A stretch of 33,278 nt of DNA from a virus (Duplodnaviria > Heunggongvirae > Uroviricota > Caudoviricetes): IMG/VR virus record IMGVR_UViG_3300045744_000007, positions 64,001 to 97,278 of that record, one strand, 5' to 3'. A program made the translations under genes and the position numbers. The notes under the pieces were generated by a model. The model was not told the origin of the DNA. It searched no databases and worked only from the letters and a program-made list of their open reading frames with translations. Position 1 is the first letter of the stretch. Each line of letters opens with the position of its first letter. Shown piece after piece: positions 25,101 to 33,278 of the stretch.

Positions 25101-26610
25101 CATCGTTGCCGTCTTCCACCCGCAGGGTCGGTACAGCTACAAGCTCAGTCAGTTCACGTCTGACTACACGAGCCCGGGCGGTCATCTCTATACGACCGAC
25201 CAGGGGGCCTACGGGCCAGGACGCTTCATCGGTGGCGCTTCGCCTGCGTACCCGAATGGGAACTCGCAGACGTGGTACGGGATGGAGCCCCTGTTCGTTG
25301 CTGACGCAGCGGTCACGCAGGTCAACCCGACGACGGCCGGTGCTTCGGGCGCAGCTCAGACGGCGTCGGTCGGGCATGCTGCGCTGGCAGGGACGGGTGC
25401 GGTCAACGCGACTGTGCCCTACGACGCCTCGGGAGCAGAACTCTCGGCCTCCTTGGAGTCGCAGGCACCGGTCGACGTGGCCGCAAGCGCCATTGACGCA
25501 TCGGTCAGCTCGGCCAGCAACATTGTGGTGGCGGCTGGCATGGCAGGCACCGGTGCTGCCAGTGCTTCTCCGTCCGCCTCGCTGGGGAGCCCGGCTGGTG
25601 CCGGAGGGGTCGCCGCCTCGGGTCTGGGCGAGACAGGAGCAGTCAAGGGTGCGAGTGGCGTCTCGGGGGTGGCTGTCGGTGCGCTCACGCCGAACGTCAC
25701 GGTGCCCGGGGCCACCTCGGTCAACGCTGGGACTGCCGGGGTCACGGGGAGCGCGCTCAGTGCTACTCCGTCGAGTGCCCAGGGTGTCCCGGCAACGACC
25801 GGGGGAGCCGGGGCCAGTGCTTCGGATGCCGTCGCATCGGTCAAGGCTCGGGCTGGGACAGCGGGTGTCGGAGCCAACTCCCCGCTCGGGGACTCGGTCG
25901 AGGCAGGCGACGCCAACATCAGTGCTGGGACGGCTGGGGTCACGGCTGCCGCCCGGGATGCGAGTGCATCGTCTCCCACGTTCGCTCTGGTCGAGACTGC
26001 AAACGCGATCGTGAGCGCGCTCATGGCGTCGGTGGTGACCACCGAGCTTGCGCCAGGGGCGTTCCCGAACTTCACGGTGCTCGATCTGTCGAACTTCACG
26101 GGTCGGCCGGTGGCGAGCTACACGAACACGGCCTATGTCTCGCAGGCTCTGGCTGAGGCTCGACTGTTGTTCAAGCTGGCAACCTGCCGCTCGACCTACC
26201 CGACCACGGTCGATGAAGCGCAGTTGGCCGAGTACGCGATCCTGAGCCTGGCAGACAGCATCTATCTGGCCTCGGCGTACACCACGACGTTGGCCTCGCC
26301 CTTCCAGTCGGAGACGATCGGGAGCTACACCTACACGAAGACGAGTGCTTCGGTGGGGAGCTTCGCGACGAGGATCGCAGCGGGTCAGCCGACCGGGGAC
26401 ATGTGGTTTGACCTCGCAGTGCGCTCGCTGGGGGTCTGCGAGACAGGGCTGGCGTCCTCGGCGTTGCAGGTCTTCACCGACGATCTGGTGTGGGAAGAGG
26501 ATCGGGCCACGGGTCGGCTGAGAGTGCTCGGGCCAGAGGACTACAACAGGGTTGACTACCTGTGGGGCATCGAGTCCGGGGTCATGCATGATCCAGTGGG
26601 TGAGTGGTGA
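22153..26610 (+). CDS. 1485-aa fibre protein (N-terminal beta-rich domain, 20-aa-period G/A/S repeats, two DUF4082 domains) fused to a C-terminal head-tail adaptor domain
   Basis: DUF4082-like segments near 24110-24600 and 24820-25300. The C-terminal ~180 aa contain FQSETIGSYTYTK (26302-26340). Lies directly upstream of the stopper gene. Confidence 0.75.
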   Translation: MAIAVDASSAAGVSQTNSATLTLATGSFTPPSGSVILASWQGNSATANPTAPTIANSGGLTFTAVNIRTSADTGGAHGQAAMWYAIVSTSPGAMTVTVTNNAASGSRQARLRVLVLTGADTTTPIASSGEGTDSGGALDTLSYTSTVANSVGFASVSDWDVSSTTFTAASGTTIDDSQSVGASINCATLKQTTPTTSGSTISLGLTSPTSTQWNYVWAEIRPASTSGTSASAANTAASVTSSSAQSSVKPSASATSVAPAAQGAVGSVKGVASLAGTGASAQSALGGVGPAAGGTGTSAGAQGAVNGVRGAASLGSATASAPSAAAGAGSLAGGPGVSGSALGTSNQVQGTASSSGTTASTPSPGLSGSTSAGAPGVGAGVQSVATPINVRAGMAGVAPSAVNGTATNGVAAAAGLAGVAIGVPASAPGTASGIGASGVGASAQVPGAGAGASSGVSGVGVSAPTPSPSAGASAQTPSSGAGAQTPGSGVTASSGASGVGAGAQLLSSGVKPSSGLGGVGADAQLPSSGIGSSGGASGASAGALGVGSGFSFPVGTGGVGASAPGAGVGSGLPAGTGGVGAGALGAGTGSSSLAGTSGVGVGAGASTSGVGASGGAGGVGAGAQTPSSGVGASVGTSGAGASSPNGDAETPVAVDTFWNGSPPAWTGSDDDAPLAVGMAFSVLVSGQCTGVRFHTNTTESGTVVAQLHTNTGTLLASKNGPTNPTAGSYDITFDTPQTLNTSTIYVVSIWHPEGRYSYTTNPSQFQADFTSPGGTLFTSDQGGYGPGRFVYGASAGALPNGNSQTWYGAEPIFSTVSAGTNASAANAPVTGQSNGVGSNVTAGGVGSTGAAASASNATISSANNATASAGLASTAVLGITAAVNSSSGTTYETLFGGSPPAFTGSDDDPSPLTLGLAFSVLSSGSLAGVEVSTATTETGTWVALLYDNAGNQLATKNGPTNPGAGTYRVFFDTPVTVNTGTIYIVAVFHPQGRYSYKLSQFTSDYTSPGGHLYTTDQGAYGPGRFIGGASPAYPNGNSQTWYGMEPLFVADAAVTQVNPTTAGASGAAQTASVGHAALAGTGAVNATVPYDASGAELSASLESQAPVDVAASAIDASVSSASNIVVAAGMAGTGAASASPSASLGSPAGAGGVAASGLGETGAVKGASGVSGVAVGALTPNVTVPGATSVNAGTAGVTGSALSATPSSAQGVPATTGGAGASASDAVASVKARAGTAGVGANSPLGDSVEAGDANISAGTAGVTAAARDASASSPTFALVETANAIVSALMASVVTTELAPGAFPNFTVLDLSNFTGRPVASYTNTAYVSQALAEARLLFKLATCRSTYPTTVDEAQLAEYAILSLADSIYLASAYTTTLASPFQSETIGSYTYTKTSASVGSFATRIAAGQPTGDMWFDLAVRSLGVCETGLASSALQVFTDDLVWEEDRATGRLRVLGPEDYNRVDYLWGIESGVMHDPVGEW
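23461..24080 (+). repeat. Degenerate 60-bp (20-aa) tandem repeat, about 10 units
   Basis: RGTGGTGTSGGGGC-like starts at 23461, 23521, 23641, 23701, 23821, 23881 and 23941, with weaker matches at 23761, 24001 and 24061. Confidence 0.85.
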
Positions 26611-26996
26611 TGGAACACCTCTTCAACTCGGTAGTGGCTGTTTACCGGCTTGAGTCCTCGGCGGTGGACGGGATGCTGAGCTACACCTGGCTGGACTCCG
26701 GGGTGAGGATCAAGTGCCGTCTCGACATCGGCTTCCTGCGCCCGGGGAAAGATCAGCCGATGGCGGTAGAGGCAGGCAAGGCACCTGATCGGGTCGGGGT
26801 GCTCTACTGCCTGCCCGACCAGGACATCCGGGCGGGGGATCGGGTGGTGGCCCTTGAGCCTGCGGCTGTGCCGGGCACTTTCGAGGTGAGAGTGATCCCG
26901 GACCGGGCCCAGGGGTTCGCGACGGCGCATCACATCGAGGTGCAGATCGTGGAGGTCAGCCAGGCACTAGCGGGTGTCTTCCCGGGGAGTGAGTGA
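26610..26996 (+). CDS. Head-to-tail stopper (SPP1 gp16-like)
   Basis: TGATG coupling; DIRAGDRV motif; canonical position after the adaptor. Confidence 0.75.
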   Translation: MEHLFNSVVAVYRLESSAVDGMLSYTWLDSGVRIKCRLDIGFLRPGKDQPMAVEAGKAPDRVGVLYCLPDQDIRAGDRVVALEPAAVPGTFEVRVIPDRAQGFATAHHIEVQIVEVSQALAGVFPGSE

Positions 26997-27370
26997 TGAG
27001 CCTCAAGGTGACCTCGGACTGGTCGGACGTGGACCACGAACTTGTGAGGGTGGAGAAAGCACCATCCATCGAGAGCACGACGGCGCTGGATGCTGCCCTG
27101 AAGGCACTCTTCGAAGAGACGCAGGCGGCAGTGCACGTCATCACCGGCTCGCTCAAGAACTCGGGGAAGACCAGCACGAAGACTCACCGGTATATGTGGG
27201 TGGGCGAGATCACGTACGGTGGGGCGTCGCCCGGCTTCCCGCACAACCCGGTGCGCTACGCGTGGTACGAGCAGAGGAGAGGCGGGGGTCACGACTTCAT
27301 GGCGCTGGTCAACACCGACATCGGCAACGACGCGATGCTGACGGCGGTTGAAATTGCGCTGGAGGGCTGA
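26996..27370 (+). CDS. HK97 gp10-like neck protein
   Basis: VHVITGSLKNSG resembles the PVxTGxLRxS motif; sits between stopper and terminator. Confidence 0.65.
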   Translation: MSLKVTSDWSDVDHELVRVEKAPSIESTTALDAALKALFEETQAAVHVITGSLKNSGKTSTKTHRYMWVGEITYGGASPGFPHNPVRYAWYEQRRGGGHDFMALVNTDIGNDAMLTAVEIALEG

Positions 27371-27828
27371 TGACTGACTACGTGCTGGCAGCCCGGCGCT
27401 ACCTGGCTGCGCAGGCCCCCGTGCGGGCGGTGCTGGGGTCTGACGCGCTCTGGGACACTTGGCTCTTCCAGATGAAGCTACAGGCCACGCTAGAGGGCTC
27501 AGAGTCCGTCGCGTGCGTCCTCAGCCCGGGGGGCAACTGGACCACGCCCAACGAGCACAACACGGCGCGCTTCCCCCGGCTCCGGGTCGAGTTCTTCGCA
27601 GATCCCACGCGGGACGCTGCCCGGAACGTGGTGACGGCATCGACGTGGGCGAAGCTCAGTGCCGCGTACGACGCGATTGATCCCTACCTGCATTGGATGG
27701 GTGGAGAGCAGATGTGGGGTGACGTTCGGGTCATCGGCTCCAAGCGACTGGGAGAGCTGGACTACTCACCGGTGCAGGACGGGGATGGTGGGGGATACGC
27801 CGTCGTCTACTACGGGCTGGTGCTCTAG
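27370..27828 (+). CDS. Tail terminator protein (putative)
   Basis: 152 aa; last gene of the neck cluster; N-terminal AARRYLAAQAPVRAVLG helix fits gp17/gpU-like proteins. Confidence 0.65.
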   Translation: MTDYVLAARRYLAAQAPVRAVLGSDALWDTWLFQMKLQATLEGSESVACVLSPGGNWTTPNEHNTARFPRLRVEFFADPTRDAARNVVTASTWAKLSAAYDAIDPYLHWMGGEQMWGDVRVIGSKRLGELDYSPVQDGDGGGYAVVYYGLVL

Positions 27829-27831
27829 ACA

Positions 27832-27859
27832 GCAGAAAGCCCCCTTTCGGGGGCTCTGC
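27832..27859. terminator. Bidirectional intrinsic terminator between converging transcripts
   Basis: AGCCCCC-TTTC-GGGGGCT between stops at 27828 (+) and 27865 (-). Confidence 0.8.
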
Positions 27860-27864
27860 GGTGC

Positions 27865-28167
27865 TCAGCGGTGGGTGGGCAAGTCCTCGGTCCAGCTCTT
27901 GCCCAGATGTGGCCCTAGGGCTTCGACGTGCACCTGGTCACCTTGGAGCTTGGCCTTGTAGACACACGCTTGCATGACCAAGCCCTTGCGCCAATAGACC
28001 GTGAAGCATGCCCCCCGGGCCCAGGCGGCATCGATGGTGACGCGATCGAACTGTTCGAACCGGCGGGGCAGAGCATCGAGCCAGTCAGCGAACCGGTCCT
28101 CTCCGTCGCGCAGCTCTCGTTGGAGGTCAGCCCACCACGCCTCGTGGTTCTGGAGGTAGGACGGCAT
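27865..28167 (-). CDS. Hypothetical protein (100 aa)
   Basis: AGGGAG SD on the minus strand; ends at the terminator. Confidence 0.7.
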   Translation of the reverse strand: MPSYLQNHEAWWADLQRELRDGEDRFADWLDALPRRFEQFDRVTIDAAWARGACFTVYWRKGLVMQACVYKAKLQGDQVHVEALGPHLGKSWTEDLPTHR

Positions 28168-28178
28168 CTCAGTTCTCC

Positions 28179-28328
28179 CTACCGGTGGATCTTGCCGTCG
28201 CCCGTGACGATGATCGTCCCGTCGCTGGTGTGGATCTCGATGTGGTCGGTGTCCTTCTCGAGCTTGATCACGTCGCCCTTGCTCGCGGTGTGGTAGGTCT
28301 CGCCGCCACCGAGGATCGTGGTTCGCAT
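28179..28328 (-). CDS. 49-aa hypothetical protein; not in the ORF track
   Basis: AGGAG SD; MRTTILGGGETYHTASKGDVIKLEKDTDHIEIHTSDGTIIVTGDGKIHR; directly behind the promoter at 28364-28392. Confidence 0.7.
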   Translation of the reverse strand: MRTTILGGGETYHTASKGDVIKLEKDTDHIEIHTSDGTIIVTGDGKIHR

Positions 28329-28363
28329 CTCAGGTCTCCTTCTCGGTCGTTGTCGGTGCGACT

Positions 28364-28392
28364 AGCCTAGCGTACTAGTTCACTGGTGTCAA
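28364..28392 (-). promoter_or_regulatory. SigA/HrdB-type promoter TTGACA-N17-TAGGCT (variant of the repeated promoter)
   Basis: Minus strand TTGACAccagtgaactagtacgcTAGGCT. Confidence 0.8.
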
Positions 28393-28398
28393 CCAGGC

Positions 28399-28596
28399 TC
28401 AGTCTCGTTGCTTGCGCTCTTCGATCATCTGATCGATCAGCCCGTCCATGTCGTAGCCGTCGTCGCTGAACTTCTGACGACGTCCGTACTTCCGGTCATC
28501 CGCCATGTTGGACACGAGATCGAAGAGATCCTCGAAATCGTCGTCGGAGAGATCCCCGATCTTGTCCATGAGCCGGACGACATCCATGCTTGCCAT
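28399..28596 (-). CDS. Acidic small protein (65 aa, 19 D/E)
   Basis: GGAAAGGAG SD; residues counted by hand. Confidence 0.75.
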   Translation of the reverse strand: MASMDVVRLMDKIGDLSDDDFEDLFDLVSNMADDRKYGRRQKFSDDGYDMDGLIDQMIEERKQRD

Positions 28597-28617
28597 GGCA
28601 GGCTCCTTTCCTTTCTG

Positions 28618-28758
28618 TCAGTTCTCGGTCTGTCGATCGTGGACGTACACGGTGCGTCCGGTGTTCACGGCAGCCATGACGCCGAGATAGGTCGCGTCCT
28701 CCTCGTCATCGGTGGTGGCGACCAGCCCATGACGCTCGCTGATGATGTAGAACCGCAT
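28618..28758 (-). CDS. 46-aa hypothetical protein; not in the ORF track
   Basis: AAGGAGG SD; MRFYIISERHGLVATTDDEEDATYLGVMAAVNTGRTVYVHDRQTEN. Confidence 0.7.
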   Translation of the reverse strand: MRFYIISERHGLVATTDDEEDATYLGVMAAVNTGRTVYVHDRQTEN

Positions 28759-28759
28759 T

Positions 28760-28960
28760 TCAGTCCTCCTTCGGTTGCGTACGAACGTCAACCGGCTCCC
28801 CCGGCTCGCTGGAGATCACAGTGATGAGCGGTCCATCCTCATCCCAGGTGCTCGCGAGCCACGTCTGGTCTGTGCGGTTGAAAGCGGCGCTCAGGTTGTT
28901 CCCGTCCCTCGCCAGACCGACCCAGATTGCTTCGTGGCCGTCGTCTGTAATGAGCATCAT
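28760..28960 (-). CDS. Hypothetical protein (66 aa)
   Basis: ATGA overlap with the upstream gene. Confidence 0.65.
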   Translation of the reverse strand: MMLITDDGHEAIWVGLARDGNNLSAAFNRTDQTWLASTWDEDGPLITVISSEPGEPVDVRTQPKED

Positions 28961-29235
28961 CGGTGCAGCGCTCCGTCACTCGGGAGGGTGACCCGCACCA
29001 GTCGGAGGGGGTCGGCACTGGTGCCGTAGGCCCATCGGCCGTTGTACCGGTACGCCTGCCAGACGTAGAGGGAGGGAGCGGGCCCGCTGGTGTCCATCGA
29101 AACGAACTCGGCCCGGCGGTTGTCACCCTCACCGATGATCCGCATGAACACGGCTTCCTCGTCCGGCCCCGCGTCCTTCCCGAAGTCGAGGAGCACGGTG
29201 TCACCAGGGTTGAGCGTGTCGATTCGAATGCCCAT
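28957..29235 (-). CDS. Hypothetical protein (92 aa)
   Basis: AAGGAG SD; start reassigned to ATG 29235, behind the repeated promoter. Confidence 0.7.
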   Translation of the reverse strand: MGIRIDTLNPGDTVLLDFGKDAGPDEEAVFMRIIGEGDNRRAEFVSMDTSGPAPSLYVWQAYRYNGRWAYGTSADPLRLVRVTLPSDGALHR

Positions 29236-29267
29236 AGTGATCACTCCTTGGTCGGCTTGATGACTCA

Positions 29268-29296
29268 ATACTGCCGCACTGGTTCACTGTTGTCAA
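29268..29296 (-). promoter_or_regulatory. Repeated promoter copy, TTGACA-N17-CAGTAT
   Basis: Minus strand TTGACAacagtgaaccagtgcggCAGTAT. Confidence 0.8.
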
Positions 29297-29331
29297 CCAC
29301 TTCAACAGATGAAATTCTGTTCCTGCGTAGC

Positions 29332-29353
29332 GAAAGGGCCCCCGAAGGGGCCC
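29332..29353 (-). terminator. Intrinsic terminator (cUUCGg loop)
   Basis: Minus strand GGGCCCC-TTCG-GGGGCCC-TTTC. Confidence 0.85.
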
Positions 29354-29375
29354 CATGCTCAGTGCTGAGAGGTGC

Positions 29376-29780
29376 TCAGTTGCCCCACTCGCTGTCAGTG
29401 GTGTCGTCCTCGTCGTCGCTGTCCTCGTCCTCGTCGTCGCTGTCCTCGTCCTCGTCGGCGGGGAAGGTGTCGTTCTCCTGGTTGAGCTTGTCCTGCGCGG
29501 CCAGGAGGAGCGCCTCCCACTCCGGGTCCTCCACGAGCGAGCCCGTCTCGCGGGCGGCCAGCGCTTCGGCCAGGTTCTTGACCACGAACCGCAGCTTGGG
29601 GGACGTGGCGACCAGGACGCCGTCCCGGGTGATGAGGTGGTAGGTGCGGTTCCCCGGCACACCGGTGCGGATGCTCCAGCCGAGCTGGACCGGCTGGTCG
29701 TAGCCGTTCACGTTCACGCCGACGAACACCGGCTCGCAGGTGGTGGCGTTCTTGGGGTCGGTGGTGTCGATCTCGGTCAT
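29376..29780 (-). CDS. Hypothetical protein (134 aa) with poly-acidic C-terminal tail
   Basis: AGGAGG SD; the tail DEDEDSDDEDEDSDDEDD is encoded by a 21-bp duplication. Confidence 0.75.
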   Translation of the reverse strand: MTEIDTTDPKNATTCEPVFVGVNVNGYDQPVQLGWSIRTGVPGNRTYHLITRDGVLVATSPKLRFVVKNLAEALAARETGSLVEDPEWEALLLAAQDKLNQENDTFPADEDEDSDDEDEDSDDEDDTTDSEWGN

Positions 29781-29818
29781 GATTCACGGCCTCCTAGGCT
29801 CACGTAGTTGACTCTTGA

Positions 29819-29905
29819 TCAGTCACAGTCGAAGGAAGGGTCCTCGCGCTCCGTGCGCTCGACCTCGGCCCAGTCCACAAGCTCAAGCTCGTCGTCCCAG
29901 GTCAT
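29819..29905 (-). CDS. 28-aa acidic peptide (12 D/E); not in the ORF track
   Basis: GGGGAGG SD; MTWDDELELVDWAEVERTEREDPSFDCD; first ORF behind the promoter at 29941-29970. Confidence 0.6.
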   Translation of the reverse strand: MTWDDELELVDWAEVERTEREDPSFDCD

Positions 29906-29940
29906 CGCTTGCCTCCCCTGTCTCGCTGCTGACAGGAAGA

Positions 29941-29970
29941 ACACTATCGACACTAGTTGCCCAACGTCAA
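29941..29970 (-). promoter_or_regulatory. Leftward promoter TTGACG-N18-TAGTGT
   Basis: Read directly; shares AACTAGTG with the repeated promoter spacer. Confidence 0.65.
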
Positions 29971-30006
29971 CCCTCACTCGTGTGAGTCAGGCCACAGAGT
30001 GCATAG

Positions 30007-30035
30007 TTGACACCAGTGAACCTGAGGGGTAGTGT
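30007..30035 (+). promoter_or_regulatory. Rightward promoter TTGACA-N17-TAGTGT (repeat-family member)
   Basis: TTGACAccagtgaacctgaggggTAGTGT; the leader CATCAAG...CCGACCAGGGAG matches that of two minus-strand copies. Confidence 0.8.
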
Positions 30036-30070
30036 TGTCCTCATCAAGACAGATACCGACCAGGGAGCAC

Positions 30071-30418
30071 ATGATGGCCTCCAAGACCGAAGAGCTGGAA
30101 CTGCGCTTCAACTCCGTGAACGACATCAAGAAGTTCTCGCTCTCGCGGGGCTCGAACTGGTTCTCCCCGAACACCCTCCGGTTCTTCCAGTCGCGGTTCT
30201 CGCAGACGGTGTACGGGGGCCGGATCTTCGTCTCCAGCGAGATGAACTTCGACGGCACCCAGCGCCTCTACACGGTGCGGTTCGTCAAGGCCGATGGTGG
30301 GGTCGAGACGATTGGTGAGTTCCAGCAGTACGAGACGCTGGCCCAGGCGCAGGGAGCCGCCCGCCGGGCCGCCCGGGAGTGGGTGGAGACGGGGAAGATG
30401 CCCCGCCCCACCAACTGA
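30071..30418 (+). CDS. Hypothetical phage protein (115 aa)
   Basis: AGGGAG SD. WFSPNTLRFFQSR...FVSSE...RLYTVR...GEFQQY resembles a recurrent phage family (possibly DUF7447; unverified). Confidence 0.75.
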   Translation: MMASKTEELELRFNSVNDIKKFSLSRGSNWFSPNTLRFFQSRFSQTVYGGRIFVSSEMNFDGTQRLYTVRFVKADGGVETIGEFQQYETLAQAQGAARRAAREWVETGKMPRPTN

Positions 30419-30436
30419 GCAGACAGCACGCGAGAG

Positions 30437-30458
30437 AGGGCCCTTCGGGGCCCTTTTT
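30437..30458 (+). terminator. Intrinsic terminator (cUUCGg loop, U-tract)
   Basis: AGGGCCC-TTCG-GGGCCCT-TTTT. Confidence 0.9.
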
Positions 30459-30513
30459 CGTGTCTGCCGAAGGTTTGCTCTAGGAGCTGCGTGCCTAGAG
30501 AGGGCTTGACCCC

Positions 30514-31677
30514 GTGACGTTGAAACTGTTGCTCAAGACTCCAGTGACGCCATACAGCGGGTATGGCAACGATGGGATCGGGCTCACGCGCTCACTCCTG
30601 CGGCGTGGTGTCGACCTCTACCTACAGCCGCTGTACTGCAACCCACCTCTGCCGCGTTACGTGGCCGAGCTGCTGACTCGTAGGCTCGATGCGCCGTTCG
30701 ACGTCATCCTGGTGCACACGTCCTTGGACACGCAGGACTTTGCTTCGCTGCCAGAGGTGCGGAGAGCAACGAAGTTCCTGGTCGGGTGGTCCATGTGGGA
30801 GTACACGACCTTTGACAACATGCACAAGGAAGCGCGGGAGACGCTCAAGGAGCGGTTGTCTCACTTCGACGTGCTGATCGGGTACGACAGTGTGACGTGT
30901 GAGGCACTCAAGGAGTACGCCCCGGACATCCCGATCCTCTCCTTGCAGGGCGGTTACATGCCCGAGGAGTGGAGCTTCATTGATCGGGATTGGTTCTCTG
31001 ATCGCTTCGGTTTCTTCATGGAAGGGCAGCTACACGAGCGAAAAGATCCGTTCGTTGCCATCGAAGCGTTCCGGCAGCTCAAGGCAGAGTGCCCGGACTT
31101 CGAAGGTGCAGAGCTGCACCTCAAGACCAACGTCCCGGGGCTGCATCCTGCCATGGAAGAAGTGATCCCGAAGCTGAGAGTCCACTACGCCACCTGGCCG
31201 GTTGAGCTGTTGAGAGAGTTCTACGCCCGGCAGCATTGCTTGCTCGCCCCCAGCCGGGGGGAGGGGAAGAACGTCCCCGCCTTGCAGTTCATGTCTACGG
31301 GTGGGTTGACGATTGCGACCGGGTGGGCGGGCCACACGGTGTGGCAGGACCCGAGCTACTGCTACGCGCTGGATTACGAGTTGCGCCCCGTCTCCTCGGA
31401 CACGCCCCGGTGTCTCAATGCGCGGGCAAGCGTCGACCACCTGAAAGAGCTGATGCTCAAGGCGTACCGGGAGCGGGGAGAGTCCAAGAGGATGGGCTCT
31501 CTGGCTGCGCAGGTGATCCCGCAATCGTGCTCCTGGGATGCCGTGCTCGAACGTCTCTTCTTGCAGCTAAAAGAGCTTGAGGGTGGGTCCCTCGTCTGGG
31601 ATCTCTGGTGCTCCACGCCGCGCCCTGAGTCGGCAGTAGACGCGCTCGCGAGAGGACTGACCGGTGCCCAACTCTGA
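30514..31677 (+). CDS. GT-B fold (GT4-like) glycosyltransferase
   Basis: N-terminal YSGYGNDG loop; GQLHERKDPFVAIEAF; LLAPSRGEGKNVPALQF, an EX7E-like motif with Q at the second position. Confidence 0.85.
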   Translation: MTLKLLLKTPVTPYSGYGNDGIGLTRSLLRRGVDLYLQPLYCNPPLPRYVAELLTRRLDAPFDVILVHTSLDTQDFASLPEVRRATKFLVGWSMWEYTTFDNMHKEARETLKERLSHFDVLIGYDSVTCEALKEYAPDIPILSLQGGYMPEEWSFIDRDWFSDRFGFFMEGQLHERKDPFVAIEAFRQLKAECPDFEGAELHLKTNVPGLHPAMEEVIPKLRVHYATWPVELLREFYARQHCLLAPSRGEGKNVPALQFMSTGGLTIATGWAGHTVWQDPSYCYALDYELRPVSSDTPRCLNARASVDHLKELMLKAYRERGESKRMGSLAAQVIPQSCSWDAVLERLFLQLKELEGGSLVWDLWCSTPRPESAVDALARGLTGAQL

Positions 31678-31900
31678 GCACACCGCGCATGAGCTGCGCT
31701 GCCCAGTGGGCCCACAGAGGCTCTTCGCCATCTACCGGTCGAGTGGGGAGCGACCGGTGGTCACAGACGAAAACCTCATCGAATTTGCGTGTGCAGACTG
31801 CCGACGCTCGCTCAGGTCGGAAGGTCAGTCGATCGCTTGGGTCTATCACCGGTTCAACCTGGTAGGTGAGCTGGTCGAGTCAGAGGTTGTGCCAGCATAG
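31664..31900 (+). CDS. Small Cys-containing protein (78 aa), possible Zn-ribbon
   Basis: ELRCP...IEFACADC; overlaps the GT stop. Confidence 0.6.
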   Translation: MPNSEHTAHELRCPVGPQRLFAIYRSSGERPVVTDENLIEFACADCRRSLRSEGQSIAWVYHRFNLVGELVESEVVPA

Positions 31901-31901
31901 C

Positions 31902-31928
31902 GAAAGGGGCCCCACACGGGGCCCCTCT
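31902..31928. terminator. Bidirectional intrinsic terminator
   Basis: AGGGGCCCC-ACAC-GGGGCCCCT between converging stops at 31900 and 31945. Confidence 0.85.
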
Positions 31929-31944
31929 CAAGCGCTGTAGGTGC

Positions 31945-32241
31945 TCACTCGCGGGGGAGCTTGGGAAGCCTCGCGAACCGGAGCTGGCCCATAGCCAGTG
32001 CTCGCAGTTCGTCCGAAACCTCGAATGCTCCGCTGTTGCCAGCAATGTGGATCGTGTGCTGAGCCCACACCTTGAGCTGAGACTCACTACCCCGGACCAC
32101 GATCCCGTGACCGGTGCGGTGGCAGGGGAGCCCAAGCCCCATTGCCGCCCGGACTCCAGCGGCGGCAACGTTGGGGTCATGCTCGACCGTCTCGAATGTG
32201 CGGATGAGCGGTAGAAGGTCGCGAGGATCGATGATCTTCAT
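31945..32241 (-). CDS. Hypothetical protein (98 aa), single-gene cassette
   Basis: AAAGGGGAG SD; own promoter and terminator. Confidence 0.75.
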   Translation of the reverse strand: MKIIDPRDLLPLIRTFETVEHDPNVAAAGVRAAMGLGLPCHRTGHGIVVRGSESQLKVWAQHTIHIAGNSGAFEVSDELRALAMGQLRFARLPKLPRE

Positions 32242-32274
32242 GGTGCTGCTCCCCTTTCCTGTGCCAACACCTCA

Positions 32275-32303
32275 ATACTGCCTCACTGGTTCACTGCTGT
32301 CAA
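32275..32303 (-). promoter_or_regulatory. Repeated promoter copy, TTGACA-N17-CAGTAT
   Basis: Minus strand TTGACAgcagtgaaccagtgaggCAGTAT. Confidence 0.85.
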
Positions 32304-32337
32304 CCAATACCAGCCCTGAAATTCAGTTCCCGTATAC

Positions 32338-32363
32338 GAGAAAGGGCCCCACACGGGGCCCCT
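32338..32363 (-). terminator. Intrinsic terminator
   Basis: GGGCCCC-ACAC-GGGGCCC with a TTTCTCG tail on the minus strand. Confidence 0.85.
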
Positions 32364-32383
32364 CCTCACCTCTGCTGGTTCCC

Positions 32384-32746
32384 TCACATCTCCGAGATGA
32401 GCTTGACCGGCTGAGGGGGCGTCACCTTGTCGCGGATCGCCGCCAGCCGCTCGCGGCCGTACTGGAGCGCCGTCAGCATCTCGTCGCTCGGCTCCTTGAC
32501 CTCCTGGGCCACCAGCGCCCGGAGGAGCCACGTGACGATGCGGTGGGGACGGGTGTCCTCGGTCGACCCCATGAGCTGACCGGCGGTGCTCAGGAAGTGG
32601 ATCGTCCCGTCCCCGTCCGAGAAGGTCCAGCCCAGGATGCTCGCCCCCCGGTGCCAGGTGTAGCCGTTCACGACCACGCCGTTGTCAGCGGCGATGACCG
32701 GGAAGATCTTGAAGGTGTTCTCCGGGGTGCTGGTCTGCTCGCTCAT
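32384..32746 (-). CDS. Hypothetical protein (120 aa), single-gene cassette
   Basis: AAGGAG SD; start reassigned to ATG 32746. Confidence 0.75.
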   Translation of the reverse strand: MSEQTSTPENTFKIFPVIAADNGVVVNGYTWHRGASILGWTFSDGDGTIHFLSTAGQLMGSTEDTRPHRIVTWLLRALVAQEVKEPSDEMLTALQYGRERLAAIRDKVTPPQPVKLISEM

Positions 32747-32784
32747 CTCACTGTCTCCTTGGTCGGTTCCGGCTTGATGACTCA

Positions 32785-32813
32785 ATACTGCCTCATTAGT
32801 TCACTGCTGTCAA
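32785..32813 (-). promoter_or_regulatory. Repeated promoter copy, TTGACA-N17-CAGTAT
   Basis: Minus strand TTGACAgcagtgaactaatgaggCAGTAT. Confidence 0.85.
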
Positions 32814-32863
32814 CCTCTACCAGCCACGAAATTCAGTTCCCGTAGCCAGCTCAGACAGCAGAC

Positions 32864-32891
32864 GAGAAAGGGCCCCCCGAAAGGGGCCCCT
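32864..32891 (-). terminator. Intrinsic terminator
   Basis: GGGCCCC-N6-GGGGCCC with a TTTCTCG tail on the minus strand. Confidence 0.85.
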
Positions 32892-32912
32892 GCTCACCTC
32901 TGTGGGTGAAGC

Positions 32913-33155
32913 TCACTCGAACACCGACGTCTTGTGCTCCAACGTCGGGAGGATGATGACCGCGTTGAAGGCCGGGTTGAAGTCCCCGTGGGGGTACCGG
33001 ACGCGCACCGTGCCGTCGCCCTCCACCAGCAACGTGCGCCCGTCCTGGAGGGTGATGGTCGTGGTGGCGAACTCGTCTGCGAGGGTGATGGGGTCGGTCG
33101 TCTTGTACGCGTCGCGCTCGATGCTCTTGATCAGCGCCCGGCTGTAGGTGTCCAT
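32913..33155 (-). CDS. Hypothetical protein (80 aa), single-gene cassette
   Basis: AAGGGAG SD; start reassigned to ATG 33155. Confidence 0.75.
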   Translation of the reverse strand: MDTYSRALIKSIERDAYKTTDPITLADEFATTTITLQDGRTLLVEGDGTVRVRYPHGDFNPAFNAVIILPTLEHKTSVFE

Positions 33156-33195
33156 GATCTGTCTCCCTTGAATCGCTCCCCTTGCCAACACCTCA

Positions 33196-33224
33196 ATACT
33201 GCCTCACTAGTTCACTGCTGTCAA
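33196..33224 (-). promoter_or_regulatory. Repeated promoter copy, TTGACA-N17-CAGTAT
   Basis: Minus strand TTGACAgcagtgaactagtgaggCAGTAT. Confidence 0.85.
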
Positions 33225-33278
33225 CCCCTACCCGAGACATCCTCAGAAAGCTCTACAGGCTCCCCGCAGGCCACACCC

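What the first reader, a model, noticed from the sequence alone, without database searches (positions are those of the whole stretch)
27826..33230. Array of self-contained gene cassettes joined by a repeated terminator-box-promoter element
Seen: four near-identical promoters (29268, 32275, 32785, 33196; TTGACA-N17-CAGTAT with spacer core CAGTGAACYARTG) and three variants (28364, 29941, 30007). On the minus strand three junctions read: stop, GGGCCCC hairpin with U-tract, GGAACWGAATTTC, 14 nt, promoter, leader, SD, unrelated small gene. Shared flanks extend further (CTCACCTCTG at ~32366 and ~32893; AGACAGCA at ~27827, 30421, 32852). Established: T4-type phages carry PeSL promoter/stem-loop cassettes that mediate modular gene shuffling. 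Inference: an actinophage counterpart in which ~100-bp repeats let strongly expressed host-takeover or anti-defence genes be excised, duplicated or swapped by recombination without an integrase. The array probably continues beyond the window.
Basis: partly seen in the sequence, partly recalled or inferred. Interest (0 to 1): 0.8.

Follow-up and report, generated by a model that had tools for sequence, protein, structure and literature searches.

The report
Phage accessory-gene cassettes sharing promoter-terminator repeats
An uncultured actinobacterial phage carries a run of small orphan genes, each with its own promoter and terminator, inserted into its otherwise conserved neck-to-tail genes; the regulatory repeats look copied between unrelated genes, much like known T4-phage cassettes, but active shuffling could not be tested.

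Summary
The repeats are real and at the stated coordinates: 6 promoter matches in the window against 0 in 100 shuffles. The promoter is not specific to the array. It belongs to a 27-copy sigma-A-type family spread over the 97-kb contig, with a dyad GTTGAC-N4-GTSAAC over the -35.

The array holds five leftward and one rightward promoter-gene(s)-terminator units. They sit at two intergenic points of a gene string (tail terminator | glycosyltransferase + small gene | major tail protein) that is contiguous in Microbacterium phage Magritte and in most of 80 IMG/VR relatives.

All leftward cargo genes lack homologues in relatives and in 50,697 phage genomes. Two are distant paralogues.

The four array promoters agree at 12 of 16 positions that vary freely in the rest of the family (about 1 expected). 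One upstream type is joined to two different leader types. So the regulatory unit has been copied or exchanged independently of its cargo at least once.

The 'shared flanks' are the lower stems of long terminator hairpins. The 13-bp box has a fourth, independent copy at the same 14-nt spacing elsewhere in the genome.

This is a moron-like, PeSL-like architecture. The scan had already noted the genome-wide promoter in the neighbouring window.

The parts
27370..27828 (+). Tail-terminator homologue (152 aa). Conserved left neighbour of insertion block 1.
   Evidence: tblastn to Magritte gp30 (tail terminator), 33% identity, E 1e-18. Homologues lie next to the GT gene in 78 relatives.
27830..27862 (-). 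Hairpin terminator (GCCCCC-TTTC-GGGGGC plus lower stem) that ends the leftward 29296/28392 unit. Its + strand 5' flank is AGACAGCA.
   Evidence: Folds at -23.0 kcal/mol, z -3.6; the U-tract is on the minus strand only.
27865..28328 (-). Two orphan genes (100 aa at 27865-28167; 49 aa at 28179-28328) downstream of internal promoter 28364-28392.
   Evidence: Coding-type GC1/GC2/GC3 and SD motifs. No Pfam or PHROG match.
28364..28392 (-). Promoter variant (TTGACACCAGTGAACTAGTA...GCTAGGCT), internal to the unit, with no terminator upstream.
28399..29235 (-). Four orphan genes (65, 46, 66 and 92 aa) transcribed from promoter 29268-29296.
   Evidence: No family match. The 92-aa protein has no tblastn match in 50,697 phage records.
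29268..29296 (-). Array promoter copy 1 (core 29264-29298) with leader type A (TCATCAAGCCG...ACCAAGGAG).
29311..29323 (-). Box GGAACAGAATTTC, 14 nt upstream of the -35.
29336..29354 (-). GGGGCCCC-type hairpin terminator with TTTC tail, ending the 29970 unit.
   Evidence: -22.5 kcal/mol.
29376..29905 (-). Two-gene unit: 28-aa ORF (29819-29905) and 134-aa orphan (29376-29780). The 134-aa protein is a paralogue of the 120-aa cargo and of genome 44425-44736.
   Evidence: Found only itself in the 5.8e9-protein search. A profile of the three paralogues found only 2 further small proteins in 1.84e9 representatives.
29941..29970 (-). Promoter variant (TTGACGTTGGGCAACTAGTG...TAGTGT), back-to-back with the rightward promoter at 30007.
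30007..30035 (+). Rightward promoter variant (TTGACACCAGTGAACCTGAGGGGTAGTGT).
30074..30418 (+). DUF7447 gene (114 aa), a rightward single-gene cassette.
   Evidence: Pfam PF24239 E 2e-20; PHROG 4655. Scattered homologues in Streptomyces, Rhodococcus, Bacillus and Burkholderia phages. Absent from Magritte, G1 and G3.
30438..30458 (+). Strong rightward terminator (GGGCCC-TTCG-GGGCCC-TTTTT) with lower stem GCAGAC/GUCUGC. It ends the DUF7447 cassette 56 nt before the GT gene.
   Evidence: -34.6 kcal/mol, z -6.6.
30514..31900 (+). Conserved island: glycosyltransferase (387 aa) and 78-aa gene, homologues of Magritte gp31 and gp32.
   Evidence: 47% and 37% identity to Magritte. 664 homologues. Syntenic in 80 relatives.
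31906..31925 (-). GGGGCCCC-GTGT-GGGGCCCC hairpin terminator ending the 32303 unit. Convergent with the 78-aa gene.
   Evidence: -28.1 kcal/mol; (D8).
31945..32241 (-). Orphan cargo, 98 aa (single-gene cassette).
   Evidence: No Pfam, PHROG or phage tblastn match. Generic alpha/beta fold only.
32275..32303 (-). Array promoter copy 2, leader type B (GTGTTGGCA...).
32318..32330 (-). Box GGAACTGAATTTC.
32337..32374 (-). Terminator: 13-bp stem GAGGAGGGGCCCC/GGGGCCCUUUCUC. The CAGAGGTGAG flank (CTCACCTCTG on the + strand) overlaps its 5' arm.
   Evidence: -29.5 kcal/mol, z -3.75.
32384..32746 (-). Cargo, 120 aa; distant paralogue of the 134-aa gene.
   Evidence: 32% identity, E 1e-5. No phage tblastn match.
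32785..32813 (-). Array promoter copy 3, leader type A.
32828..32840 (-). Box GGAACTGAATTTC.
32852..32903 (-). Long terminator hairpin. The AGACAGCA and CTCACCTCTG flanks pair as its lower stem.
   Evidence: -31.1 kcal/mol.
32913..33155 (-). Orphan cargo, 80 aa (single-gene cassette).
   Evidence: No family match.
33196..33224 (-). Array promoter copy 4, leader type B. It has a different upstream sequence and no box. The contig ends 54 nt further on.

Best explanation
What it is: a cluster of moron-like accessory-gene transcription units inserted at two intergenic points of the conserved neck-to-tail gene string of a roughly 135-kb, probably lytic, Magritte-like actinobacterial siphophage. The two points are (a) between the tail terminator and the glycosyltransferase and (b) after the small gene that follows the glycosyltransferase.

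How each unit is built:
- It starts with the phage's own standard sigma-A-type promoter. The family has 27 copies genome-wide: G-TTGACA, a 17-nt spacer and a TAnnnT-like -10. A dyad GTTGAC-N4-GTSAAC overlaps the -35 and probably serves as an operator for a dimeric regulator.
- It has a short leader with a GGAG-type ribosome site and one to six small orphan genes.
- It ends in a long GC hairpin with a short U-tract.
- In three leftward junctions the terminator of one unit, a 13-bp GGAA-N5-TTTC box and the promoter of the next unit form one composite repeat of about 100-140 bp.

Inferred function: host-polymerase-driven, insulated expression of small orphan proteins, mostly antisense to the late virion genes. 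The hairpins stop read-through into the neighbouring structural genes. The box is an upstream promoter element (activator or UP-like site).

Inferred history: the composite regulatory unit has been copied or exchanged between cassettes with unrelated cargo by homologous recombination or gene conversion in the 35-bp promoter core, and partly by duplication of a gene together with its junction.

Shown here: sequence anatomy, genome-wide distribution, insertion relative to relatives, orphan status, mosaic pattern.
Inferred only: promoter and terminator activity, timing of expression, the role of the box, and any present-day mobility.
For: Repeats and chance:
- 6 matches against 0 in shuffles.

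Genome-wide family:
- 27 copies. The G before the -35 is present in 27/27, TTGAC in 27/27, and AAC at fixed offset in 25-27/27.
- The reversed-pattern control gave 0 matches.
- The same dyad occurs 5 times in relative G3, against 0.05 in shuffles.

Insertion:
- Window 26604-27828, 30514-31677 and 31664-31900 match Magritte gp28-30, gp31 and gp32. None of the cargo genes matches Magritte.
- In 78 relatives the gap from tail terminator to GT has a median of 52 bp, and 68 have 200 bp or less. Here it is 2,686 bp.
- In 75 relatives the gap from GT to the major tail gene has a median of 393 bp, and 60 have 460 bp or less. Here it exceeds 1,378 bp and runs to the contig end.
- Magritte's major tail, tape-measure and minor tail genes have no match on the contig, so the tail genes lie beyond the array.

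Coding and orientation:
- The minus-strand ORFs show a coding-type GC1/GC2/GC3 profile and SD motifs.
- The U-tracts lie on the minus strand.

Orphan cargo:
-.

Copying independent of cargo:
- The four array promoters are identical at 12 of 16 columns that are unconstrained in the other 23 family members; about 1.0 is expected.
- Upstream type U2 (32303 and 32813) is joined to leader type B and leader type A respectively. Leader A also follows a different upstream type (29296), and leader B another (33224).

Box:
- 12-13/13 identical, against 5-8/12 and 2-6/13 in its flanks.
- A fourth, independent GGAA-N5-GTTC copy lies exactly 14 nt upstream of promoter 7424 elsewhere in the genome.

Lifestyle:
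- No integrase or resolvase on the 97 kb.
Against: - No expression data exist, so promoter and terminator activity rest on consensus only.
- The array -10 (CAGTAT) is weaker than the TAnnnT of other family members, and the simple sigma-70 scan does not call these promoters.
- The U-tracts are only 3 nt, so termination may be partial.
- GC content of the inserted blocks (62-63%) equals the rest of the genome, so there is no compositional sign of foreign origin.
- The nearest relatives share only about 43-50% protein identity, so 'insertion' could in principle be loss in the other lineages. That would need many parallel losses.
- The contig is 72% complete and ends inside the array.
Confidence: 0.7

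Rival explanations
1. Active PeSL-type shuffling. The composite repeats of about 100 bp are present-day recombination substrates. Crossovers between neighbouring repeats excise cassettes as mini-circles and re-insert them at other repeats. This drives gain, loss and swapping of orphan genes without a site-specific recombinase.
For: - The architecture matches the published PeSL description: stop codon, stem-loop with G and C tracts, AT-containing tract upstream of a sigma-70-like promoter, SD, orphan gene (PMC2839356).
- The array promoters are identical at unconstrained positions.
- Upstream and leader types are mosaic.
- The same element flanks cassettes on both sides of the conserved GT island.
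- Block 1 is bracketed by two hairpins that share the AGACAGCA flank.
- No integrase was found.
Against: - No indel with a breakpoint in a repeat has been seen, because no close relative exists in INPHARED, IMG/VR or the JGI metagenomes.
- No read-level evidence was possible.
- Only three full composite copies exist.
- None of the cargo genes occurs elsewhere in another context, apart from in-genome paralogues.
Confidence: 0.3
2. Tandem duplication and divergence only. One ancestral cassette (gene plus junction) was duplicated several times. The coding parts diverged beyond recognition, while the regulatory parts were held by purifying selection. No foreign genes were captured and no exchange occurred between repeats.
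For: - The 134-aa and 120-aa cargo genes are paralogues (32% identity, E 1e-5), and each lies directly upstream of a full junction.
- Another promoter-plus-gene duplication exists at genome 30570/31712.
- GC content is uniform.
Against: - The other cargo proteins (92, 98 and 80 aa and the rest) show no similarity to each other, even with permissive BLAST.
- Promoter cores agree at 12/16 positions that selection does not hold in the wider family. Those positions should have drifted together with the genes.
- The leader and upstream combinations need at least one crossover.
Confidence: 0.15
3. Pure regulatory constraint. The repeats look alike only because the same proteins (RNA polymerase, an operator-binding regulator, a box-binding factor) must bind them. 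The similarity says nothing about recombination.
For: - The dyad over the -35 is kept in 27 promoters, and in 5 sites of relative G3.
- The box recurs at the same spacing at an unrelated promoter.
Against: - Constraint does not explain identity at unconstrained spacer and post -10 positions.
- It does not explain the shared 9-11-nt leader starts in two alternative types.
- It does not explain the near-identical terminator stems and tails. Five of the six GGGCCC-type hairpins in the genome lie in the array.
Confidence: 0.15
4. Assembly artefact: the contig end is a chimeric or collapsed repeat region, not a real genome segment.
For: The contig stops 54 nt beyond a repeated promoter, and the record is only 72% complete.
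Against: - The region uses the same promoter family, SD style, GC content and codon profile as the rest of the contig.
- The GT and small-gene island keeps the order seen in 80 relatives.
Confidence: 0.03

Closest known systems
PeSLs (promoter-early stem-loops) of T4-like phages (Arbiol et al. 2010, PMC2839356; Comeau et al. 2014, PMC4122927)
   Same: - A composite intergenic motif of about 100 bp: stop codon, G/C-tract stem-loop acting as terminator, an AT-containing tract upstream of a host sigma-70-type promoter, and an SD.
- Many copies per genome.
- Placed in front of orphan genes in variable regions, including occasional sites inside virion modules.
- Sequence conservation long enough for homologous exchange.
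   Different: - An unrelated phage lineage (high-GC actinobacterial siphophage) with unrelated sequence.
- Here the hairpin always lies upstream of the promoter. In PeSLs it mostly lies between or over the -35 and -10.
- Only three full composites exist, although 27 promoters do.
- The promoter carries a dyad over the -35, and a discrete 13-bp box replaces a general AT-rich tract.
- No indel breakpoints or mini-circles have been shown.
Morons of lambdoid and other tailed phages (Hendrix/Juhala concept; from my own knowledge, not read here)
   Same: Extra gene(s) with their own promoter and terminator, lying between two genes that are adjacent in related phages, inside a late operon.
   Different: - Here several units in a row share one repeated regulatory element.
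- The phage is probably lytic (no integrase found), so expression from a prophage is not the point.
- There is no compositional difference from the host genome of the insert.
Repeated intergenic motifs of actinobacteriophages: Cluster EC 18-bp motif, EG inverted repeats, EI 30-bp repeats, EF start-associated sequences, Cluster O 17-bp repeats (Jacobs-Sera et al. 2020, PMC7302621)
   Same: Short conserved motifs, 5-12 or more copies, in small intergenic regions upstream of starts in Microbacterium and other actinophages. Their function is mostly unknown.
   Different: - The motif here is a recognisable sigma-A-type promoter with an operator-like dyad.
- In the array it is fused to terminator and box.
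- Its sequence differs from the EC motif quoted in that paper.
Halovirus HF2 intergenic repeats that carry promoters (PMC8707807)
   Same: Classes of intergenic repeats that turned out to be promoters.
   Different: An archaeal virus with a different promoter type. Seen only as title and abstract.

Membership tests
PeSL (T4-like phages) | Composite of a host sigma-70-type promoter and a stable stem-loop in one intergenic motif | tested here: met
   Three junctions carry a hairpin (-22 to -31 kcal/mol) 30-48 nt upstream of TTGACA-N17-CAGTAT. This is sequence level only.
PeSL (T4-like phages) | AT-rich tract upstream of the -35 | tested here: inconclusive
   The 13-bp box has an AT core (GAATTTC) at about -56 to -50. 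The family as a whole shows no strong AT enrichment upstream (AT 0.32-0.48).
PeSL (T4-like phages) | Many copies, concentrated in variable regions in front of orphan genes | tested here: met
   27 promoters, many directly after hairpins. The array lies in an insertion absent from relatives and precedes orphan genes.
PeSL (T4-like phages) | Indels between closely related phages end inside the motifs | not testable with these tools
PeSL (T4-like phages) | Mini-circles formed by exchange between neighbouring motifs | not testable with these tools
PeSL (T4-like phages) | Occurs in T4-like myoviruses, or is homologous in sequence to their motifs | tested here: not met
   The phage is a relative of Microbacterium phage Magritte and, more distantly, Streptomyces phages. 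The motif is unique to this contig in all collections scanned.
Moron | Gene(s) with their own promoter and terminator | tested here: met
   Six units, each with a promoter consensus and a terminal hairpin.
Moron | Lies between genes that are adjacent in related phages | tested here: met
   Magritte gp30|gp31 and gp32|gp33 are adjacent. 68 of 78 and 60 of 75 relatives have tight junctions.
Moron | Base composition differs from the surrounding genome (frequent, not obligatory) | tested here: not met
   GC is 0.623 and 0.630 in the blocks against 0.635 for the rest of the window.
Moron | Transcribed independently of the surrounding operon | not testable with these tools
   No transcript data.
Actinophage repeated intergenic motifs | Short conserved multi-copy motif in small intergenic gaps upstream of gene starts | tested here: met
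   27 copies, with 1-94 nt from the -10 to the next start.
Actinophage repeated intergenic motifs | Same sequence as a described motif (Cluster EC 18-mer as quoted in PMC7302621) | tested here: not met
   The consensus here is t-R-G-TTGACA-nn-aGtSAAC-tag...tAnnnT. It is different from the motif quoted.

The most novel reading that the evidence does not exclude
Actinobacterial phages have their own PeSL-like system. A portable adaptor of about 100-140 bp (long terminator hairpin, a GGAA-N5-TTTC box bound by a dedicated factor, an operator-bearing sigma-A promoter) is the preferred crossover point. Through it orphan genes are captured, duplicated and moved, even into the middle of the virion operon. 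This would give a concrete mechanism for the small-gene mosaicism that is typical of actinophage genomes.
Probability: 0.25. Interest if true: 0.65.

Novelty: new variant of a known kind. Interest (0 to 1): 0.45.

Why it matters
- Actinophage genomes are famously mosaic and full of small orphan genes, but the mechanism of small-gene flux is mostly put down to rare illegitimate recombination. A repeated promoter-terminator adaptor that travels independently of its cargo would be a second, independent example of the PeSL principle, in an unrelated phage lineage.
- This case also shows that a tightly conserved neck-tail operon can tolerate a block of antisense, separately transcribed genes.
- The 27-copy promoter with an operator-like dyad and the 13-bp upstream box give testable regulatory parts for high-GC hosts.
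- As it stands this is a well-documented architecture with indirect signs of exchange, not a demonstrated mobile system.

Tried and rejected
Searches for close relatives:
- Megablast and blastn of the array against 50,697 phage records: no match.
- Exact-pattern scans of IMG/VR and JGI metagenome contigs for the promoter, the array-specific promoter, and box plus -35: only single chance matches in unrelated low-GC contigs.

The 3-kb contig with an identical GT (P0001) and the 81%- and 66%-identity GT contigs (P0002, P0003) could therefore not be inspected.

Insertions at the same hot spots in other relatives:
- The 4-7 kb between the small gene and the major tail gene in a high-GC clade holds mostly rightward, larger genes.
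- The 5.2-kb insertion in L048 has 13 small rightward genes but no repeated promoter or terminator.
- Neither is the same kind of array.

Cargo function:
- No Pfam or PHROG match except DUF7447 and a weak, unconvincing PHROG hit.
- The ESM Atlas gave no usable lead.

Other dead ends and rejected ideas:
- De novo k-mer counting for repeated motifs in relatives was swamped by codon bias.
- A MITE- or transposon-like reading was rejected: no terminal inverted repeats and no transposase or integrase.
- A structured RNA was rejected: no Rfam match.

Full report
OBSERVATION

- A 50-nt family has five copies (28351, 29255, 32262, 32772, 33183).
- A 98-nt family has three copies (29264, 32271, 32781; 60-74% identity).
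- A terminator family lies at 29319, 31889 and 32326.
- The pattern TTGACANNAGTGAACNNNTG with up to one mismatch occurs 6 times in the window, against 0.00 in 100 dinucleotide-preserving shuffles.
- Aligned on the minus strand, three junctions read: stop codon, GC hairpin + TTTC, GGAACWGAATTTC, exactly 14 nt, GG-TTGACA-N17-CAGTAT-TTGAG, leader, GGAG-type ribosome site, start.
- The fourth promoter (33196-33224) has a different upstream sequence. The record ends 54 nt beyond it.

WHERE IT LIES

The window is the last 33 kb of a 97,278-bp linear IMG/VR record, estimated 72% complete, with 62.8% GC. Nearly all genes run rightward. The leftward genes at 27865-29905 and 31945-33155 are the main exception.

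The closest cultured phage is Microbacterium phage Magritte (133 kb; terminase 51% identity). Streptomyces phages of about 130 kb follow at 33%. Comparison with Magritte and the wider set of relatives shows the following.
- Window 26604-27828 matches Magritte gp28-gp30 (minor capsid protein and tail terminator). The 387-aa glycosyltransferase (30514-31677) matches gp31 at 47%. The 78-aa gene (31664-31900) matches gp32. No cargo gene has a Magritte counterpart.
- In Magritte these genes are contiguous and followed by the major tail protein.
- An alignment of glycosyltransferase homologues retrieved 80 related IMG/VR loci.
- In 78 of them the gap from tail terminator to glycosyltransferase has a median of 52 bp, and 68 have 200 bp or less. 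Here it is 2,686 bp.
- In 75 of them the distance from glycosyltransferase to major tail protein has a median of 393 bp, and 60 have 460 bp or less. Here at least 1,378 bp of leftward cassettes follow, up to the contig end. These gaps are taken from tblastn alignment ends, so they are approximate.
- Magritte's major tail, tape-measure and minor tail proteins find nothing on the contig, so the tail genes lie beyond the array.

The cassettes therefore sit at two intergenic points of a very conserved neck-to-tail string.

ANATOMY

The minus-strand ORFs have the coding GC1/GC2/GC3 profile of the phage's long genes and GGAG-type sites 5-10 nt before the start. The overlapping plus-strand ORFs do not. 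The transcription units are listed below.

| Promoter | Strand | Genes | Terminator |
|---|---|---|---|
| 33224 | - | 80 aa | 32852-32903 |
| 32813 | - | 120 aa | 32337-32374 |
| 32303 | - | 98 aa | 31906-31925 |
| 29970 | - | 28 aa + 134 aa | 29336-29354 |
| 29296 | - | 92, 66, 46, 65 aa, then internal promoter 28392, then 49 + 100 aa | 27830-27862 |
| 30007 | + | DUF7447 gene (114 aa) | 30438-30458 |

- The hairpins fold at -22 to -35 kcal/mol. In the leftward units the short U-tract lies on the minus strand only.
CAGAGGUGAG pairs with CUCGUCUG..., and GCAGAC pairs with GUCUGC. They are the lower stems of long terminator hairpins.
- Five of the six GGGCCC-type hairpins on the contig lie in the array.

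THE PROMOTER IS GENOME-WIDE

- A pattern search of the whole record found 13 copies with up to 2 mismatches, and none for the reversed control. Looser scans found 27.
- Their consensus is t-R-G-TTGACa-nn-aGtSAAC-tag-n-g-n-g-n-tAnnnT. The G before the -35 is present in 27/27, TTGAC in 27/27, and AAC at fixed offset in 25-27/27.
- This makes an imperfect dyad GTTGAC-N4-GTSAAC over the -35, which is operator-like. It occurs 23 times on this contig, against 0 in shuffles.
- It also occurs 5 times in relative G3 (141 kb, about 50% protein identity), but not in G1 or Magritte.
- Many copies follow hairpins directly.
- The neighbouring window's reader had already listed 17 of these promoters. I reached the same set independently.

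So the array uses the phage's general promoter. It is not an element of its own.

THE BOX

GGAACWGAATTTC is 12-13/13 identical in the three junctions. The 12 nt between the box and the -35 are only 5-8/12 identical, and the 13 nt before the box only 2-6/13.

A looser form, GGAA-N5-KTTC, occurs 11 times on the contig. Four of these lie exactly 14 nt upstream of a family promoter. Three are the array copies. The fourth, independent one is at genome 7397, before promoter 7424.

That points to a functional upstream promoter element, centred near -56. It is not just a relic of duplication.

CARGO

- Apart from DUF7447 (Pfam E 2e-20) and the conserved glycosyltransferase island, no cargo protein matches Pfam or PHROGs convincingly.
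- DUF7447 has scattered homologues in Streptomyces, Rhodococcus, Bacillus and Burkholderia phages.
- No cargo protein matches Magritte, the complete relatives G1 and G3, or the 80 related loci.
- The four leftward cargo proteins tested (134, 98, 120 and 92 aa) find nothing in 50,697 phage records.
- The 134-aa protein found only itself among 5.8 billion proteins.
- The 134-aa protein, the 120-aa cargo and a third gene at genome 44425-44736 are distant paralogues. A profile of the three found just two further small proteins in 1.84 billion representatives.
- Atlas look-ups gave no functional lead.

'Host takeover or anti-defence' is therefore unsupported conjecture.

SIGNS OF EXCHANGE

1. At 16 core columns that vary freely among the other 23 family members, the four array promoters are identical at 12. 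About 1.0 would be expected if they were drawn from the family. The adjoining genes, by contrast, share nothing. The promoters are therefore recent copies, or have been homogenised, independently of their cargo.
2. The first 9-11 transcribed nucleotides come in two types: A (TCATCAAGCCG; 29296 and 32813) and B (GTGTTGGCA; 32303 and 33224). The upstream part (lower stem, TTTCTCGT tail, box with T, GGCTGGTA) is shared by 32303 and 32813. One upstream type is thus joined to both leader types, and each leader type to two upstream types. This needs at least one crossover in the roughly 35-bp core.
3. The terminator at 31925 combines the loop of the 32362 hairpin with the tail of the 29354 one.
4. 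Two junctions each follow one of the two paralogous genes, so part of the similarity comes from duplication of a gene plus its junction.
5. Block 1 is bracketed by two hairpins with the same AGACAGCA flank. This is compatible with insertion at a hairpin, but it is a single case.

WHAT COULD NOT BE DONE

- No relative close enough to show cassette-level indels exists in the collections.
- Insertions at the same two sites in other relatives are of a different kind.
- No expression data exist.

COMPARISON WITH KNOWN SYSTEMS

- The published PeSL description fits the architecture and the genomic setting: stop codon, G/C-tract stem-loop acting as terminator, AT-rich tract, sigma-70-like early promoter, SD, orphan gene, about 100 bp of conservation, about 50 copies, mostly in hyperplastic regions but sometimes in virion modules (PMC2839356; PMC4122927).
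- The two defining pieces of evidence for PeSL mobility are indel breakpoints between near-identical phages and mini-circles. Neither could be tested here. The lineage and sequence are unrelated to T4-like phages.
- The units also meet the two structural criteria of morons: their own promoter and terminator, and a position between genes that are adjacent in relatives. They show no compositional difference, and the phage is probably lytic.
- Repeated intergenic motifs are a recognised, mostly unexplained, feature of Microbacterium and other actinophages (PMC7302621).
- No paper in the library links PeSLs with actinophages.

VERDICT

The best reading (0.7) is an array of moron-like, separately transcribed orphan-gene units. 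They are built from the phage's general operator-bearing promoter plus long hairpin terminators, and are inserted into the neck-tail operon. The regulatory repeat has demonstrably been copied or exchanged independently of its cargo in the past. Present-day PeSL-type shuffling remains possible (about 0.3) but unshown.

This is a new variant of a known kind, of moderate interest.

Noticed in passing
whole contig G000 (window 6011, 17204, 28392, 29296, 29970, 30007, 32303, 32813, 33224, plus 18 sites upstream of the window): 27 copies of one sigma-A-type promoter share an imperfect dyad GTTGAC-N4-GTSAAC over the -35 (AAC kept in 25-27 of 27). It looks like the operator of a global regulator of host-polymerase transcription. 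The same dyad occurs 5 times in the 141-kb relative G3, but not in G1 or Magritte.
   Followed up: partly
genome 7397-7409 (outside the window), upstream of promoter 7424: A fourth box-like element, GGAATTCAGGTTC, lies exactly 14 nt upstream of a family promoter that is unrelated to the array. The box is quasi-palindromic (GGAA-N5-TTC).
   Followed up: partly
window 30438-30513: A strong rightward terminator (-34.6 kcal/mol, five T) lies 56 nt before the glycosyltransferase start. The glycosyltransferase, the 78-aa gene and presumably the tail genes must therefore be re-initiated from the short gap 30459-30513. That gap holds the GCCGAAG-hairpin leader another reader flagged as a possible late promoter.
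   Followed up: no
window 29941-30035: Two family promoters are placed back-to-back, with their -35 hexamers 36 bp apart. They drive the leftward 28-aa/134-aa unit and the rightward DUF7447 gene.
   Followed up: no
window 33225-33278 (contig end): The assembly stops 54 nt beyond the last repeated promoter, inside the array. Repeats or population variation here may have broken the assembly.
   Followed up: no
L077-L080, L082, L084-L086, L088, L091, L096, L097, L083 (between the small gene after the glycosyltransferase and the major tail gene): A high-GC clade of relatives (68-72% GC) carries 4-7 kb of mostly rightward genes of 80-570 aa at the same site where this phage has leftward cassettes. 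The site is a recurrent insertion point.
   Followed up: partly
L048 4814-10001 (relative G3): A 5.2-kb insertion of 13 small rightward genes lies between tail terminator and glycosyltransferase, the same site as block 1 here. It has no repeated promoter or terminator.
   Followed up: partly
relative G3 (L105-L112), whole record: The 9-mer GCGTACGCC, part of a palindrome, is the most frequent 9-mer of that genome (32 copies). It was not examined further.
   Followed up: no
window 29819-29905: The 28-aa ORF resembles residues 44-63 of the 2029-aa head-module protein (40% over 20 aa, E 9e-4 against the contig's own ORFs). This may be chance.
   Followed up: no
leaders across the contig (for example window 29236-29262 and 32747-32780; genome 6364, 14237): Many leaders share CCGACCAAGGAG or GGGAGACAG directly before the start codon. 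This is a phage-wide extended ribosome-site motif.
   Followed up: no
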